A stretch of DNA of 63,483 bases, counting the filler, from Asterionella formosa (taxonomy: Eukaryota): NCBI GenBank assembly GCA_002256025.1. It is 11 parts of 11 records of this genome, joined end to end, with 100 filler letters (N's around TTAATTAATTAA, not from the genome) between each part and the next. Parts side by side here need not be neighbours in the genome. Positions count along the whole stretch, not along the records: positions 24,669 to 49,213 come from NKIB01002226.1; 10 more parts are not named here. One strand, given 5' to 3'. Under the pieces are notes generated by a model that worked only from the letters and a program-made list of their open reading frames with translations, did not search any database and was not told the origin of the DNA. This document shows, in pieces, positions 2,970 to 50,240 of the stretch; positions within the stretch are counted from its first letter, which is position 1; every line of letters starts with the position of its first letter. Made by a program: the position numbers and the translations under genes.

Positions 2970-3903
2970 CGACGGACACGCAAAGTGTCAGTCACATGTA
3001 TCAATAAATTGATCAAGGAATCTGTAAATGCTGTATGCATCCCATTAATCGAAAATGCACACACTGCGAATTATGCTATCAATTGGAAATTAATTTACGA
3101 ATTTCCTTGTTTACATTATGATAGATCAGCTGGCTACTTGCGTGAGTCATATTTGATGAAAAACCAATTGTCCAAACATCTCTCTGTATGGGGAGTGATC
3201 TGAACTACCGGTACTAGAATCTGCCTACTTACAAACCACAGGTTCTTCATGAATTGAGCTTCATGCACTTGATTTCACATTGCTGGAGACTTGGGTTTTT
3301 TCTTGATGCCCTCTTAAATCCGGACCATTCCAGTGCAAAGGAGCAGAAGGATTGTAGAGGAGCTCATCCAAAGTTTTTTGGATATCTATTACAGACTAGA
3401 CATAGGGACAAGCTTCTGGTAGACTGTAGCTCACTTCTACCCAGGCTATATACAGTGTGTGGCTTGTTTCTGTAATACATACCAGTACATACTTCGTTTT
3501 CAAATATTTAGTGGATTGTAATGTGCATGGAACAAATGCTGGTTCAAACAGTTCCATTCTCCTATGAGAGGATAATTGTTGTATTCGACTACTGACACTC
3601 CTCCTGGTGTCACTATTAATTTTCCTGCCTTCCCTAATTTTTCTACCATGCTGTGAAGGAAAATGTGATGATATGCACCATATTCCTCTTGTACAGGATT
3701 TTGGGTAGCCTTCATGTACGAAAGTGTTCTTGTGTGTTTTCCTCCTCATGGAAGCCTTGACATGCAGCAATTGCATCCTTTTTCTTTATACTATCTCTTG
3801 ACCCCGCCCCCTTGTGCTTGCTCAGTCGTACTACCAAGCTAGCAAGACATGAAAAAGGATTTTGATATCATTGATGCCATCAGTGACCTCTGTTCTTAAT
3901 GAG

Positions 3904-4126
3904 AGAATGGCTTAGTTGGTTAGCACACTTTGCTTCCGAGGTTGCGGGTTCGATTCCTGCATTCTTACATGGATTTAATCAATATGCATTACTATCATGA
4001 TGTCATATGCACTCCCTCTGTTATGGTATGCCAAGTTGCAACCAAACTTTATGGCTTGGCCAATCATGAAGCACAAGCTCCGATAATTCTCTGGATAACA
4101 GCCCCTATAATATTTTAAAAAATTCC
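3904..4126 (+). mobile_element. Second tRNA-headed SINE-like copy
   Basis: AGAATGGCTTAGTTGGTTAGCACAC...GCGGGTTCGATTCCTGCATTCT (3904-3965): A/B boxes, D- and T-arm hairpins, shortened anticodon region. The 3' boundary is approximate. Confidence 0.6.
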
Positions 4127-5798
4127 GAATCGAATGGTGCATATAATATATGTTCTAAGTAGTCTAGAATTAGGTGAACCTGACATCGATTTCTTTGTTT
4201 TCGCGCCTTTTTCGTAGAATTGCGCCCCGTTTGGAATGTTTGCTCTGGAACCCCCTTTTTTTCTTTGACCCTTTGTTAGCTAGTCAATAGCCTAAGCATA
4301 AGAAGAAGGCCACTAATGAAGAAAACACATCGTCGATTGCTCGTTTTGCAACCTAAAAGGGAGGCTGATGAGACTGTTGACGTGCATAGTAGCCATCTTG
4401 TCATAAATCTGGGCATGCAACAAACCCAGCACTTAACTTTAGCTACCGGTATACTATTCAATGACGATAGAACGAAATATTTCATGTCCAGAAATGCAGG
4501 CTCATTTGCTTATTTAGCTTTATCTAATTGGTAGTAAACTCCGATATTACACACACATAAACAGGTCAGTATGCTGGCCAGCAACGCAATCAATAGCCCT
4601 ACTAAATAATCCACATGAATTGCTCTTTAGCGTTATACTCGCCTAAATTTATTAATCTAGCTGATGCATTTGTTGTCTGCATTGTCTTGTGTAGAAAATA
4701 CATAATGCTTCTAGCTACAGAGGCCTTCTTTTAAGGATGTGGATCGAGCAGCAGCCAGGCCAATTAAAAGAATTGTTGCAACTATACCACCAGAACAGAG
4801 GGAGAACGCTTTACCAGCACTATAGACCAATAAAAGGTCAACCTTGATTTGCAAAATATCATCACCTTGATTGGAACTTACGACCTTGCTTGTATTGGGA
4901 TTTGACATAGTACTACCACCAAAATCCAATACAGGGGCAACCTTGAATTGCAAAATATTGTATGATCCTTCTTTTATTGGAACTTATCACCTTGTATTGG
5001 GACATGATGTAGTACCAAAGCGAAAACACAATACAGGGGCAACCTTGAATTGCAAAATGTCTCCATCCCATAAAGGGAAAGAGACAAAGCCCAATACAGA
5101 GAATACTACCATGCTGTGTTGGATGATATATCCACAACAAATAAATCAAAACCTTGAATTCGAGTGAGACCCAGATTGTTTTCATGGGACTTAACATACC
5201 AGCCTTTGCCAATACAAGGTGAACCTAGTATTGGAATGGTATTTCACCTTGTATTGGGAAACACATCAAATGACCAATACCTTTTATTGGAAAACATTGT
5301 TTTGCCCAATACAAGGTATGCCTGGATTTGGAGGACGAAAACCGGTTGAAAATGTACCAATAATTGCCAATACATGGTACCTGGTACTGGTGCTTTCGTT
5401 TCCTTTGCTGATGTTAAGCCGGGACTGCCTACCGGTAATATATCACATGCATTTGCCCTTTCATGATTGTGTCGAAGTCTTACACTATGAAAATTTACTT
5501 GATTTGATTAACTCCATATTGACAAATAATCGTAATATTCGCACTCTTGTTGTATCCTCGAACGACTTCACAACCGGGTTTCATGTTCTTCGAGAGTCGT
5601 CTGCATCTCGTCCCGTTTCCCAGCAATCTTGATGGTGTTCGCAAAAGCGAAACCGGATCGCTTCTCATCTTCCAAATTTCGCATTTGTACCCGGTACTGG
5701 TACCAAGGTATTACCGGTATTTTACATAAGATCGCCCCTAAAAAGAAGAATCTTTCTCCCTCAATCGGATCATAAAATCAAGAACAACTACCGGTAAT

Positions 5799-39008: not shown

Positions 39009-41494
39009 TCCCTTGCTACAGAAAATGGAGAACAGCCTCCATGATCTGTTGATTGTTGCTGTATGGTGCTACTGACCAAAACTTCCAGAAAGCTCAATGA
39101 GTTGCTTGTTTCTTGACTTGAATGCCCAAGGGATCAAAACCAGTGGAAAAAGCAAAAGCGAACTATAAATTCTCTGCAAACATCAGGACAATTGTGAAAG
39201 AGAAATGAAGGTTGGGAGGGGAAGTAAAGGTATTATTGCTGGTCTTGCAGGAACAAGGATGGATTGACCCAAACAATGTTGACAAATAGGTACCTACCGG
39301 AAAAAGGAAGCAATGCTTGTGGCATCATCGATCTATACACCAGCCTGCGCCACCTGACCTCAATATAGCTACCTCGACTTCATCAATGAAGAAGTTGATG
39401 GGCGGAGCATGTGAGAAGAATTGGGGTTGAGGTTTTCTTGACGCCAACATGCTTGGCTGAACTTGCAGATAAAGGCATTGAGTAACCTGGCTGGTGGGCC
39501 TGTGCAGCCAAAGGGTAAAGAAAAATCTATGACAAGGGCCGGGTAGTGAAATAGTGTTTAGGAGCAAAAGTTATCATAGCTGAACGCATTCGAAAATTGA
39601 TATAGATAATATATGGTGGCTTACCATCATGGCTGCTCTTGGCTGACAGTTGCCAAGTCAATGTACAAACGCAACAAGGGTGCAAAAAAGACAGTCCAAT
39701 TTTAATCAACTGGCTGATACTTCGTTGTGAGACTCACCATTTTGCAATGGGGTGGAATTTGATCATTGCTTGTTCAAAGCATAATCAATTCAAATGGTGA
39801 CCAGTGAAACAATGAAAACAATTGTGGCGAAAAAGCGCAGAACAGATCAAGAGATTTCAAAGGAATTATAATAACAGGGTATATATGATGCACTGCTCCT
39901 TGTGTACATTTGATCATTTCCATATTTCATATACAGGTGCATGGATGACTCCTCGCTTTCATTAGCTAGATATGCAGCGATGTTGTTGCGATAATTCTAT
40001 ACGAAACCATTTATCATAAGATCAATATGTTATGATCAAAGCTATAGGATAAACGAATCAAACTTTATTGATTAAAGATCATACTTTATACTGGAGTAGT
40101 TGCCCATGCATGCAACCCCTTCCCCCCTGTATACAGTACGGAAGTGATTACCCCTAAGCTACCAAATTTTTATGTCTTGTAAGAATTATCGCAGCATGCA
40201 TGCATACACGACTCCTACTGGTATATACAATGCGGAAATGATGACCACCAGACTACCAAACCTATAGGTCTTGTAGAATTATCGCAACAACATCGCTGCA
40301 TATCTAGCTAATGAAAGCGAGGAGTCATCCATGCACCTGTATATGAAATATGGAAATGATCAAATGTACACAAGGAGCAGTGCATCATATATACCCCGTT
40401 ATTTTAATTCCTTTGAAATCTCTTCATCTGTTCTGCGCTTTTTCGCCACAATTTTTTTCATTGTTTCACTGGACACCATTCGAATGGATTGTGCTTCGAA
40501 TGAAGCAATGATCAAAGTCCTCCCCATTTCAGAATGGTGAGTCTTAAAACTATATATTAGCCGGTCGATTAAAATGGAATCGTCTGTTGTGCAGCCTTGT
40601 TGTGTTTGTACATTGACTTGGCGACTGTCAGCCATGGTATGCCATCGTATATTGTACATGTTAATTTTCGAGTGCGTTCAGCTATGATAACTTCGTCTTC
40701 TAAACACTATCTCATCACAATTCGGGGAATGGCTTAGAGATTAGCACACCCACTGTAGTGGCGGGTTCGATTCCTGCATTCTGCACCTGCCTTTTTCATG
40801 TAGTCCCTAGGGTTCTGGGGGGTGCAGCTGAAGAAAAGACAGATCCTGTTGTACCATACGGCCGAAAAAAACCGGTATTAATTGTTTCCATTGAAAATGT
40901 GGGCACGAGTGAGATTATTGGATAGCTTCAATGGACTATAAAATTCTTTTTTCCATCTCATCACACTTCATCTTGTCATAAAATTTTAACTTCCACTATG
41001 GCACAGGCCCAGGTTACTCAATACCTTCACCAGCAAGTTCAGCCAAGCGTGTTGGTGTCAAGAAAACATCAACCCCGATTCTTCTCACATGCTCCCCCTC
41101 TCATCATACTTTCTTCATTGATGAAGTTGAGGTAGCTATATTGAGGTCAGGTCGAGCAGGCTGGTGTATAGATTGATGATGCCAAAAGCATTGCTTCCTT
41201 TTTCCGGTAGGTACCTATTTGTCAACATTGTTGGGTCAATCCATCCTTGTTCCTGCAAGACCAGCAATAATACCTTTACTTCCCCTCCCAACCTTCATTT
41301 CTCTTTCACAATTGTCCTGATGTTTGCAGAGAATTTATAGTTCGCTTTTGCTTTTTCCACTGGTTTTGATCCCTTGGGCATTCAAGTCAAGAAACAAGCA
41401 ACTCATTGAGCTTTCTGGAAGTTTTGGTCAGTAGCACCATACAGCAACAATCAACAGATCATGGCGGCTGTTCTCCATTTTCTGTAGCAAGGGA
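39009..41494. mobile_element. Two tail-to-tail copies of a decayed Tc1/IS630-like (DDE_3-type) transposase 3' region, forming a ~1-kb-arm inverted repeat
   Basis: 39009-39999 matches the reverse complement of 40274-41494. The + copy reads EGWEGK*..LQEQGWIDP, LDFINEE and LTPTCLAELADKGIE, a degenerate form of the TPKxHxELAGxGIEY motif. Confidence 0.72.
40720..40954 (+). mobile_element. tRNA-derived SINE-like insertion with an 11-bp TSD
   Basis: ATCTCATCACA at 40709-40719 and 40955-40965; absent from the paralogous arm (~39530-39550). Head has A-box TGGCTTAGAGA and B-box GGTTCGATTCC. Confidence 0.75.
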
Positions 41495-47142: not shown

Positions 47143-48462
47143 TTACAACGCAGTTCCACGTTCCAAATTTTGTTTTATTTCGGCAGTGGCTTCATCGTAG
47201 TTTCGACTAATCTTCTGATTGAATCTCTTATTGCGTTGATTGATATAGCTGACATCGGAGCCTTCGAATTCTGGAAGCGCACGCTTCTTTGCCTGTTTTT
47301 CCATTCTTCGCTTAAGCTCAGCTGCCAATCGTTTGGCACCCTGGGCTCCGTGCTGGCGGTTCTCAGTCATCATGATAGGTTCGAAAGTAGTAGCAACATC
47401 TCCGGAATAGTCTTGTGATTTGGGCAGAGTTGATAGATTCCTCTGATAATTTCGATGCTGACCTTCTGGATTGTGATAATCTTTGATCGAAAATTGATTT
47501 GTCTCTGCTCTTTCTGCCTTGTTCATGATTTTGCGAACACTGTCTGAAGCTTGTTCAACCATGTACTTGCCCTCAATGCCGTGTTCGGTGGCGACTTGAA
47601 TGGCCTTCTCATTTCGGGCATGCCAATCCCTTTCAATCCTCTCTTTGTCTTGGGAAGCTAACCTTTTGCGCTCTTTCACCATTCCTTCCTTGCTACCAAG
47701 TCTTTCTCCTTCCCTTTGTACTTCCTGCCTGTTTAGCTGTCTGCCTTGGTTCACCTTCATCTTGAAATTGCGCAAACGAGCCATCATGTGTTGTTTCTTC
47801 GTTTTCGGCTTGCCATCGTCGTCATCTTCATCCTCTGGCTCAACATTTCCATCTTCGGAAGGGTAAATATGTTCTATTGTTGTATCTGTTTTGGAGATTT
47901 GGTTCTGTGGTTCTGTGATTTCTTCTCCTTCGTCAAGGTCAATCTCATCCTCATCCTTTCCAACTGGCTGGTCTTTTTCCATGACACCACAACCAGATAT
48001 GACGACTGGCACTCTAGGAACATCATTTCTTCCCGTAGGAACACCTTCCATAGCTTTCAGGATCACTTCACTTCCTTCCACGTGTCCAAAGACGACATGC
48101 TTGCTGTCCAAGAATGGTGTAGGTTGAAACGTAATGAAGAATTGACTTCCATTCGTGTTCGGACCAGCGTTTGCCATACTTAGCATGCCTCGTTTGCTAT
48201 GAGATTGTATGAAATTCTCATCTTCGAATTCATACCCAAAGATAGAGGAACCACCAGTTCCATCTCCCTTGGTGTAGTCACCTCCTTGGGCCATGAAATT
48301 GGGAATGATTCGATGGAATTTGCAATCAACGTACGAGCCCTTCTTTATCAGACTTGTAAAGTTATGAACGGTTTTCGGAACAATGGTGTCATAGAGGATG
48401 AGATCTAATCGCCCAATCTTCGTTGTATCGATGGAGATATCGAAATAGGCACGTTTTGTCAT
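47143..48462 (-). CDS. SYF2: Cyclophilin-type PPIase fused to a SYF2 splicing-factor domain
   Basis: Likely ATG 48462 (MTKRAYFDISI). Cyclophilin motifs FHRIIPNFMAQGGD, LSMANAGPNTNGSQFF, KHVVFG; acidic linker; SYF2 tail DVSYINQRNKRFNQKISRNYD..IKQNLERGTAL. Confidence 0.88.
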   Translation of the reverse strand: MTKRAYFDISIDTTKIGRLDLILYDTIVPKTVHNFTSLIKKGSYVDCKFHRIIPNFMAQGGDYTKGDGTGGSSIFGYEFEDENFIQSHSKRGMLSMANAGPNTNGSQFFITFQPTPFLDSKHVVFGHVEGSEVILKAMEGVPTGRNDVPRVPVVISGCGVMEKDQPVGKDEDEIDLDEGEEITEPQNQISKTDTTIEHIYPSEDGNVEPEDEDDDDGKPKTKKQHMMARLRNFKMKVNQGRQLNRQEVQREGERLGSKEGMVKERKRLASQDKERIERDWHARNEKAIQVATEHGIEGKYMVEQASDSVRKIMNKAERAETNQFSIKDYHNPEGQHRNYQRNLSTLPKSQDYSGDVATTFEPIMMTENRQHGAQGAKRLAAELKRRMEKQAKKRALPEFEGSDVSYINQRNKRFNQKISRNYDEATAEIKQNLERGTAL

Positions 48463-49313
48463 GGTCAATCGCCTGAGATGGATGAATGAATGTTGGGTCC
48501 TTTGTGTCCTGAGCTTATGATACATACAGCTGCCGGTGTACCGAAATATTTTTTCCCCCTGTTTGGCTGTTGTACTACAAAATGTAGTACTGTGGTAGTC
48601 CCTTTTAAACTCTCGCCAGTATACCCCTTTGCTAAAAAGTGTGATATACCTGATGACTTCTAAATTTATCAACATTGATAAATTTGAAATGGCAGATGAT
48701 TGCCAATGTAGAGTGCCTTCAATGAGCTGTTATCTTTCCTGGAACTTGCAAATTGTACATTTCTGGCAGCGCCATTGACATTTTCCTGATACATTTCCTT
48801 CAAAACAATACCAACAAGACCTACTGAGAAAAATGATTTTTTAATTGAAGGGGAGATTTCGCTCAAAAGAATGGGCACTCCCAAACAGAGAGTGCTGCAA
48901 GATGGGGGGAAGACCTAGGAATCAACTTACGTTTATATATTATTCCTACTTGTTCTCATTTCTCCCCTAATCAATATGCATGTAGTGTAACTCTCATGAA
49001 AAATCAACTGAACTTCTTCGCAGTACCGTAGGGCAGAGCGTAAAAAACCTGAGAAGATAAGGAGGCTCCTACATAGGTCCAAAAATAGAGTTTGCAGTTT
49101 CTAGTTTGGTAACTTCGCTATTGTCGCTTCATTAAGATCATATTTGGTCCCATCGCGTAGCTCAAAGAGTCCATCTGTTACTCCTTCCCGCACTGGATTC
49201 GCCCAATGAAGCTNNNNNNNNNNNNNNNNNNNNNNNNNNNNNNNNNNNNNNNNNNNNTTAATTAATTAANNNNNNNNNNNNNNNNNNNNNNNNNNNNNNN
49301 NNNNNNNNNNNNN

Positions 49314-50240
49314 CTCCCGGCGCGGCTCATACGACAGGATGCAGTCCGAAATGACCAAGTCCAGTTGTGTGTTTGGGGGGAAGAGGGCAGTCTCAATATA
49401 TTCTGGGAACGCCTCTCTTACCTCTGTCGTGCATCGACGATTGTTGACCATGTGACGAAAGTGGTTCGGGTCTGGCAGGAATGCAAGGCACGCATCAGAT
49501 TCGACATTTGGGTAACAAGCGCCTATGTTGCTACATTCTTGGGGAAGATGGAACCTGGAAAGGCGCGGTATGGGTGGTATTTCCGACACCACATACCGTA
49601 TTTGGAGAGGGTGGGACCAAGCTTGGCACCTGCGGCCGCAGGTGCTCAGATAAACCCACCCGGATCCCCAACGCCCATGATACCACCAGATGGCTGTGGG
49701 GCACCACTGGTGGTGGGCACCCTTAACATCAACGGGCTGCAGCGGAAAAAAACCGATCTTCGGTTTCTGTTGCAACAAACCCGGTGTGATGTTATGGCGA
49801 CTGCTTTTTTTCGGGTGTTACCCATCCAAAGGGGGGGGCCTCCACTCGCCAAAGCCGGCGGGAGGGACAGCCAACACCTGCCAATGATTTCATCACATAT
49901 TGTGGTGACACAGTGGCGGCTGTCCCCCCTGCCAGGGTCCTCGACACATGGGATATTTCGGACCACTTCCCAGTTGTTGCGGACCCATCTGGGCTTACCA
50001 GAATCCCAGAGATGGGGATCGCCCCACCACGGCCGGAATCACTGTACCGGCGGATTGTGATGGAGGAGAAGGAACTCAAAGTAACCGCAACTGTGGCTAG
50101 TAGTAACTATTGGCAGCCACTAGCTGACTCGCTGGAAGAGGACCTGGAGGATGTAATCGAGTGTTCACATTCACTTGAAAACCCCACCAGTTACCACCAG
50201 GAAAGGTTGAATGGTATGGCCAAGAAGTCGATGATGTTGA
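49314..50240 (+). mobile_element. Non-LTR retrotransposon fragment (AP-endonuclease domain, internally deleted)
   Basis: LVVGTLNINGL..LLQQTRCDV (first APE motif) and WDISDHFPVV (last APE motif) lie close together in different frames; GC-rich relative to host. Confidence 0.65.

What the first reader, a model, noticed from the sequence alone, without database searches (positions are those of the whole stretch)
40709..40965. tRNA-derived SINE-like element with TSD and an empty-site paralog in a diatom-like genome
Seen: a 235-bp insert (40720-40954) bounded by a perfect 11-bp direct repeat ATCTCATCACA, missing from the other arm of the 39009-41494 inverted duplication. It starts with a tRNA-like head (A-box TGGCTTAG, T-arm GCGGG-TTCGATT-CCTGC, GAATG/CATTC stem). 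A very similar head is at 3904-3965 on the other scaffold, with a different middle and a loosely similar 3' end (GCAC.AG...GGATA...CTATAA...TTCC). Known: A/B boxes plus a variable-length TSD are SINE hallmarks. Inference: a Pol III SINE family mobilised by a LINE; an APE-LINE fragment is present at 49314. To my knowledge SINEs are poorly documented in diatoms.
Basis: partly seen in the sequence, partly recalled or inferred. Interest (0 to 1): 0.75.

Follow-up and report, generated by a model that had tools for sequence, protein, structure and literature searches.

The report
Diatom tRNA-Ala SINE with LINE tail
This is one copy of a short, many-copy jumping element with a tRNA-derived front end in a probable diatom, and its rear end resembles the end of larger resident retrotransposons that probably copy it; the arrangement is well known in animals and plants but barely described in diatoms.

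Summary
The insertion is real and is a SINE. It spans 40724-40954, with a 15-bp target-site duplication (TSD; 14/15 identical, 11-bp core perfect), and the paralogous arm is empty. A head motif matches 421 places in the genome against 0 for the control. TSDs were found in 46 of 69 independent full-length copies against 0 of 400 control pairs. The head is closest to the host tRNA-Ala(AGC) and has lost its anticodon loop. The 3904 'copy' is only a head fragment beside an unrelated MITE. The LINE at 49314 shares no tail with the SINE. Following a lead from earlier scan notes, I found that the tails match the 3' ends of endonuclease-RT-RNase H LINEs. Family A (this copy's family) matches one LINE group: the best window is the LINE end in 17 of 18 copies, though this aged copy alone is not significant. 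Family B has the same head but a different body and matches a second, younger LINE group (14 of 14). The scan noted SINE/LINE pairs before on other DNA of this genome. Verdict: new member of a known kind.

The parts
40709..40723 (+). 5' copy of the target-site duplication (11-bp perfect core 40709-40719)
40724..40954 (+). SINE, family A, older subfamily (26 of 236 columns differ from the majority of its 5 nearest sampled relatives)
40724..40785 (+). tRNA-Ala-derived head with the anticodon loop lost; 48 of 59 aligned bases (48 of 76 columns) match the host tRNA-Ala(AGC)
40730..40740 (+). A-box-like motif (two changes from the family form at its end); motif definition recalled
40764..40774 (+). 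B-box / T-arm motif; motif definition recalled
40792..40796 (+). Run of five T just after the head; possible internal Pol III terminator
40786..40898 (+). Body of unknown origin; its first part (to about 40844) is shared with family B
40899..40946 (+). LINE-related 3' region, homologous at family level to group-1 RNase H LINE ends; decayed in this copy
40947..40954 (+). T-rich tail
40955..40969 (+). 3' copy of the target-site duplication
39538..39552 (-). Empty site in the other arm of the inverted duplication (one diverged copy of the target)
3902..3966 (+). Head-only fragment of the same SINE superfamily
4012..4804 (.).
49314..50227 (+). Fragment of a young single-ORF endonuclease-RT LINE (98% and 94% to P0001); not supported as the partner

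Best explanation
The insert is an aged copy of a tRNA-Ala-derived SINE, a non-coding retroposon of about 235 bases. Inferred mechanism: RNA polymerase III transcribes a source copy from the internal A and B boxes. The RNA's last 55 or so bases mimic the 3' end of a resident LINE that encodes endonuclease, reverse transcriptase and RNase H. That LINE's protein nicks A+T-rich DNA and copies the RNA at the nick, leaving a 10-20 bp duplication, a variable T-rich tail and sometimes a 5' truncation. Family A keeps the LINE's terminal stem arms but has about 15 fewer bases between them. Family B has the same head and first half but carries the end of a second LINE group, so the superfamily changed tails at least once. 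Shown here: copy number, TSDs, empty site, tRNA source, tail homology. Inferred only: Pol III transcription, the RNA fold, and actual mobilisation by these LINEs.
For: Copies. TSDs: 46 of 69 against 0 of 400; 33 of 69 have a perfect repeat of 10-20 bp. Empty paralog. 5'-truncated copies with flanking repeats seen by eye in L201, L211 and L219. tRNA-Ala(AGC) is the top score among the 36 distinct tRNAs read from 29 loci. LINEs: a 149-aa query gave 109 matches. Long relatives of 1461-2012 aa show weak endonuclease and RT profile hits. One contig carries the endonuclease region, the part after RT, the RNase H region and the 3' end in order (L319 + L280). Family A tail: the best 92-base window along about 1.2 kb downstream covers the LINE end in 17 of 18 group-1 copies, chance about 6 in 111 each. 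L010 against L280 and L287 scores above all 1911 background windows. A group-1 end model scores 5 bits or more on 18 of 55 A copies, 0 of 275 shuffles and 0 of 14 B copies. Family B tail: 14 of 14 at 8 bits or more with the group-2 model, 0 of 70 shuffles, 0 of 55 A copies. The stem arms pair in both: AGCGC/GCGCT in 9 of 11 LINE ends, and AGTGC/GTACT in 18 of the 27 A copies that the pattern could parse, of 55.
Against: The window copy's own tail is not significant. Its best score against a LINE end is reached by 45 of 1911 background windows, and the LINE end is the best window in only 6 of 18. The family A match is weak by profile (median 3.8 bits) and needs a long gap. LINE ends were anchored on motifs that the SINE shares, which is partly circular, although copy-to-copy BLAST stops at the same places. 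The LINE copies are relatives, not independent trials. A tails also pick the group-2 end in 3 of 4, and B tails pick the group-1 end in 7 of 18, so specificity is relative. RNAalifold on 55 A copies predicted no tail stem and found no double-sided changes. 39 of 55 A copies have a T5-6 run right after the head, and the host tRNA-Ala gene is itself followed by T5, so Pol III may stop there. No LINE TSD was found to compare. The group-1 copies inspected have stops or frameshifts, and no intact copy was found. No transcript evidence was obtained.
Confidence: 0.8

Rival explanations
1. It is a SINE, but the partner is the young single-ORF endonuclease-RT LINE whose fragment lies at 49314, acting without tail homology.
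For: It is the only LINE that the RT family search showed. Its copies are mostly 98-100% identical at protein level, with long open frames, so it is recently active.
Against: No similarity of its 3' region to either SINE model. It has an A-run rather than a T-rich end and occurs as head-to-tail units beside AACCCT repeats. The SINE tails match other LINEs. The RT profile barely sees the RNase H LINEs, which explains their absence.
Confidence: 0.06
2. Family A's tail came long ago from a group-1 LINE, but the family is now, or was at its peak, copied by another member of the RNase H LINE clan (group 2 or an unsampled group) that reads only the short common end motif.
For: A, B and both LINE groups share the last 15-25 bases. 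Group-2 copies are 92-99% identical among four copies, with open frames up to 743 aa, while group-1 copies are decayed. Young A copies are 1-5% from their majority. A tails pick the group-2 end in 3 of 4.
Against: The group-2 end model gives 0 of 55 A copies 5 bits. A tails score highest on the L280/L287/L317 subgroup of group 1.
Confidence: 0.1
3. It is a non-autonomous LINE derivative or tRNA-pseudogene chimera transcribed by Pol II or by read-through from flanking DNA; the tRNA head is a passenger, not a promoter.
For: T5-6 run after the head in 39 of 55 A copies. No transcript data.
Against: Most full-length copies start at the same G-run at the tRNA 5' end. The B-box motif is kept in 421 places. 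Family B mostly lacks the T-run (13 of 14).
Confidence: 0.04

Closest known systems
tRNA-derived SINEs (SINEBase definition, PMC3531059; Repbase class SINE2/tRNA, listed in PMC5753468)
   Same: Short interspersed repeat of head, body and simple tail; about 235 bases (SINEBase median 236); tRNA-derived head; hundreds of copies; variable TSDs.
   Different: [quoted passage not shown] The head here has lost the anticodon loop and is followed by a T5 run in most family A copies.
'Stringent' SINE/LINE pairs with a shared 3' end (eel, tobacco TS/RTE, maize ZmSINE2-3/LINE1-1_ZM, Chlamydomonas SINEX; PMC3747384, passages)
   Same: The SINE's last 55-60 bases match the 3' end of a resident LINE; a stem-loop is proposed there.
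   Different: The partner here is a long-ORF LINE with RNase H from a probable diatom. Family A's match is shortened by about 15 bases. No mobilisation assay exists. The passage search of that review found 0 occurrences of 'diatom'.
Plant Au-like and other RTE-related SINEs (PMC6007223, parts 1-3 of 6 read)
   Same: T-rich tail; TSD often starts with T (19 of 33 against 30% background).
   Different: No T-stretch about 10 bases upstream of the TSD, and the matching LINE carries RNase H, which RTE elements lack (recalled).
Putative diatom SINEs of Phaeodactylum (13 copies, 1,454 bp; PMC5859163 section 12), Cyclotella (PMC7466962), Chaetoceros tenuissimus (PMC8613185), Skeletonema (cited in PMC8147415)
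   Same: Same class label in diatoms.
   Different: In the passages read these are repeat-annotation tallies with no head origin, TSDs or partner LINE. Sequence relation to this family was not tested; their supplements were not read.
Ambal clade LINEs (name confirmed only as a Repbase clade in PMC5753468; diatom origin and RNase H content recalled)
   Same: Long ORF with endonuclease, divergent RT and RNase H region; nearest Atlas clusters are mostly diatom.
   Different: No reference Ambal sequence was available, so clade membership is untested.

Membership tests
tRNA-derived SINE (SINEBase criteria) | Short (<1 kb), interspersed, non-tandem repeat | tested here: met
   231 bp here; near-full-length hits on 40 different contigs with unrelated flanks
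tRNA-derived SINE (SINEBase criteria) | [quoted passage not shown] | tested here: met
   421 head-motif matches with up to 2 mismatches, control 0; may include duplicate contigs, head-only fragments and a few tRNA-Ala genes
tRNA-derived SINE (SINEBase criteria) | [quoted passage not shown] | tested here: met
   Window copy 48 of 76 columns (63%), family B copy 52 of 73 (71%) against the host tRNA-Ala(AGC); narrow margin for the window copy
tRNA-derived SINE (SINEBase criteria) | Not a tRNA gene or pseudogene: has a body and shared diagnostic indels | tested here: met
   Shared loss of about 10 bases at the anticodon arm and a shared body of about 170 bases; no ARAGORN call in the window
tRNA-derived SINE (SINEBase criteria) | Transcribed by Pol III from the internal promoter | not testable with these tools
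Non-LTR retroposon insertion | Variable-length TSD, simple 3' tail, 5' truncations | tested here: met
   46 of 69 against 0 of 400; perfect repeats 10-20 bp in 33 of 69; truncated copies with flanking repeats by eye only
Stringent SINE/LINE pair | 3' end homologous to a resident LINE's 3' end | tested here: met
   Family B strong (14 of 14); family A moderate (17 of 18 positional); window copy alone not significant
Stringent SINE/LINE pair | Conserved 3' stem-loop with compensatory changes | tested here: inconclusive
   Stem arms pair in both LINE and SINE with a both-sided difference between them, but alifold on 55 A copies gave no tail stem
Stringent SINE/LINE pair | Same TSD and target pattern as the LINE | tested here: inconclusive
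   No credible LINE TSD recovered from the loci held
Stringent SINE/LINE pair | Mobilisation in trans depends on the tail | not testable with these tools
   Needs a retrotransposition assay
RTE-related (Au-like) SINE | TSD starts with T about 10 bases downstream of a T-stretch | tested here: not met
   First base T in 19 of 33, but no T excess at -9 to -11 (8-11 of 33); small sample
Ambal-clade partner LINE | RT phylogeny groups with Ambal references | not tested
   No reference sequence available; paper searches found only the clade name

The most novel reading that the evidence does not exclude
This genome holds a tRNA-Ala SINE superfamily that forms genuine tail-dependent pairs with RNase H-bearing diatom LINEs (possibly Ambal), and it has swapped its tail between two LINE groups while keeping head and core. 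Family A's shortened stem then marks the minimal RNA signal that this LINE protein reads, and its internal T5 run implies that diatom Pol III reads through a run that also follows a host tRNA gene. I found no described SINE/LINE pair from a diatom in the searches named in the report.
Probability: 0.6. Interest if true: 0.55.

Novelty: new member of a known kind. Interest (0 to 1): 0.4.

Why it matters
SINEs were long reported missing from most unicellular eukaryotes (as stated in PMC5859163 and PMC7466962), and the diatom reports I read are annotation tallies. This family has a known tRNA source, TSDs, an empty-site control and candidate partner LINEs, so it is a clean example for the group. 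Two tails on one head give a natural test of how a little-studied LINE type recognises its template. Young copies could serve as presence/absence markers between lake populations, though polymorphism was not shown. The mechanism itself is textbook, and this scan has noted SINEs of this genome several times.

Tried and rejected
1) MAFFT of the two arms misplaced the gap; a gapped pairwise alignment settled it. 2) Rfam and ARAGORN gave no tRNA call in the window; a relaxed ARAGORN run called 4 of 30 copies weakly and not the majority sequence. 3) The RT family search showed one LINE family and Gypsy elements, with 74 of 224 candidates unscored. Of 20 weaker hits fetched, 19 matched the Gypsy protein and one looked like telomerase by eye. 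The endonuclease family PF14529 gave 0 of 42. My interim reading 'no partner visible' was wrong because these profiles barely see the RNase H LINEs. 4) The 49314 LINE as partner: rejected. 5) RTE insertion signature: not met. 6) Covariation inside family A: none. 7) LINE TSD search: nothing credible; only 2 of 20 wanted upstream stretches were obtained, so most LINE 5' ends were not seen. 8) Polymorphism: contigs of four DNA runs from four studies laid on the young copy L004 covered the SINE, but the flanks were repetitive and no listed joint skipped the element (55 joints not shown); inconclusive. 9) Six RNA runs hold part of the stretch, five with small shares; none was laid, so they are no evidence. 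10) Metagenome scans: tail motif 0 hits, head motif 1 hit (L266, 81-83% to the nearest sampled copies); viral contigs 0. 11) A protein search with the 149-aa LINE piece found nothing among longer proteins; P0127 has no PDB match. 12) A representative-protein search was still queued and was not collected. 13) The Kramerov and Vassetzky 2011 review is not held; not read.

Full report
Observation. The perfect 11-bp repeat is at 40709-40719 and 40955-40965. Removing the insert and one repeat copy in silico lets the right arm align through with the left arm, which holds one diverged copy of the target. The arms are 96-100% identical at their ends and 75-85% near the site. Family copies begin at a G-run that corresponds to 40724, and the repeat extends to 15 bp with one mismatch, so the element is 40724-40954. 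No tRNA is called in the window.

Host. Two Atlas look-ups, one host protein and one LINE protein, give nearest clusters whose commonest recorded phylum is Bacillariophyta (leads, one source). Runs that hold about half of a SINE copy's words are labelled freshwater, lake or algal where labelled. I therefore call the host a probable freshwater diatom.

A repeat family. The insert has 604 candidates in the 68.4-Mb genome; all 40 scored match near full length, at 83-88% apart from the self-match. A 23-base head motif matches 421 places with up to two mismatches, and the reversed control matches 0; this may include duplicate contigs, head-only fragments and a few tRNA-Ala genes. From the loci fetched, which are biased to best hits, profile searches gave 83 full-length copies. 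I dropped 4 at locus edges, 3 without a head anchor and 7 with duplicate flanks, leaving 69. Of these 46 have a TSD score of 10 or more, against 0 of 400 mismatched flank pairs, and 33 have a perfect repeat of 10-20 bp. Tails are mostly T-runs or T/A mixtures. The TSD starts with T in 19 of 33 against 30% background, but the boundary is blurred by the T tail, and there is no T-stretch ten bases upstream. Several 5'-truncated copies carry flanking repeats by eye (L201, L211, L219, no control). C-to-T and G-to-A changes are enriched at CpG (45 and 56 of 330, against 40 of 1108 and 27 of 1524), partly confounded by subfamily differences.

Head. Among the 36 distinct tRNAs read from 29 loci (62 matches were listed, not all fetched), tRNA-Ala(AGC) scores highest. 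Identity is 48 of 76 columns for the window copy and 52 of 73 for a family B copy. About ten bases including the anticodon are missing. A four-pair stem is kept there while the six-base loop differs between subfamilies. A T5-6 run follows the head in 39 of 55 A copies and in 1 of 14 B copies, and the tRNA-Ala gene itself is followed by T5. T-runs end Pol III transcripts (recalled), so how full-length A transcripts arise is unexplained.

Two families. Family A includes a young subfamily 1-6% from its majority and older ones; the window copy is in an older one (26 of 236 columns from its five nearest sampled relatives). Family B shares the first 120 or so bases and the last 25 or so, with a different body between. 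By the SINEBase rule, different LINE-derived regions make different families.

The 3904 site. Only the head matches (3902-3966). From 4012 a different repeat begins, with an inverted end at 4804, and 38 of 40 scored hits of the 3895-4135 query match that part alone. Its ends resemble Stowaway/mariner MITEs (recalled).

Partner LINE. The fragment at 49314 belongs to a young single-ORF endonuclease-RT family (P0001, 1475 aa). Its 3' region has no match to the SINE models, and it forms head-to-tail units beside AACCCT repeats. Earlier scan notes pointed to an RNase H LINE, which changed my reading; I tested this independently. An RNase H profile hit led to a decayed LINE, and its 149-aa piece gave 109 matches among 129 candidates, of which I fetched 50. 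Relatives of 1461-2012 aa show weak endonuclease and RT hits. One contig has the endonuclease region, the part after RT, the RNase H region and the 3' end in order. Copy-to-copy BLAST places the LINE ends and separates groups. Family B tails score 8 bits or more on the group-2 end model in 14 of 14, against 0 of 70 shuffles and 0 of 55 A copies. Family A tails score 5 bits or more on the group-1 model in 18 of 55, against 0 of 275 shuffles and 0 of 14 B copies, always near the SINE end. With five young A tails, the best window along about 1.2 kb downstream covers the LINE end in 17 of 18 group-1 copies (these are the copies whose end motif was found, one duplicate dropped). L010 against L280 and L287 beats all 1911 background windows. 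The alignment needs one gap of about 15 bases; the flanking stem arms can pair in both LINE and SINE.

Against this. The window copy alone is not significant. The A match is weak by profile. End anchoring used shared motifs. The LINE copies are related to each other. Cross-hits occur: A picks group-2 ends in 3 of 4 and B picks group-1 ends in 7 of 18. Alifold found no tail stem or covariation within A. No LINE TSD and no intact group-1 copy were seen.

Mechanism. Shown: repeat family, TSDs, empty site, tRNA source, tail homology. Inferred from established SINE biology (PMC3531059, PMC3747384): Pol III transcription, tail recognition and target-primed reverse transcription by the LINE protein. 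I put SINE identity at about 0.96 and the group-1 RNase H LINE origin of the A tail at about 0.8.

Literature, as seen. PMC5859163: passages and section 12 (13 putative SINE copies, 'first time in a diatom'). PMC7466962, PMC8147415, PMC8613185, PMC12477816, PMC5753468, PMC3747384: passages only. PMC6007223: parts 1-3 of 6. PMC3531059: parts 1-2 of 5. Searches listed no paper that, by title and abstract, describes a diatom SINE/LINE pair. The library is open-access only, Repbase and Dfam were not searchable, and supplements of the diatom genome papers were not read and could hold related sequences. The brown alga Ectocarpus has a non-autonomous element sharing its 3' end with RTE-X LINEs, of unknown 5' origin.

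Verdict. A real SINE of ordinary design in a group where SINEs are thinly described, with a fairly well supported link to RNase H LINEs and a tail swap between two families. The scan has reported such SINEs and pairs before on other pieces of this genome; I could not confirm from the notes that each concerns the same family (one search returned nothing). New member of a known kind; interest 0.4.

Noticed in passing
window 49314-50227; L241:740-1950; L240-L265: A young single-ORF endonuclease-RT LINE occurs as head-to-tail units next to short AACCCT repeat runs and tandem repeats, suggesting a telomere-associated retrotransposon in a diatom. Its relatives include brown algal proteins.
   Followed up: partly
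window 4012-4804: MITE-like repeat with short inverted ends resembling Stowaway/mariner elements (recalled); many relatives in the genome.
   Followed up: partly
window 40792-40796: T5 run directly after the tRNA head, typical of family A and mostly absent from family B; the host tRNA-Ala gene is also followed by T5.
   Followed up: partly
window 39009-41494: Inverted duplication whose arms are near-identical at both ends but 75-85% identical in the middle, which may reflect gene conversion or assembly effects; the arms look like decayed coding sequence of unknown type.
   Followed up: no
L318 (G000:C2555), just after the LINE end: A 5'-truncated family A body sits a few bases after the 3' end of a group-1 LINE.
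   Followed up: no
L002 and L008 (G000:C9481, C9791): A SINE copy lies next to an older inverted copy on two near-identical short contigs.
   Followed up: no
L297, L306, L310: A third RNase H LINE group with a different 3' end; it may pair with another SINE family.
   Followed up: no
window 47143-48729: An open frame that by eye joins a cyclophilin-like domain to a SYF2-like C-terminal part (names recalled, not tested).
   Followed up: no
L266:519-762: A family A-type copy with a short flanking repeat in a public metagenome contig, 81-83% identical to the nearest sampled copies.
   Followed up: partly
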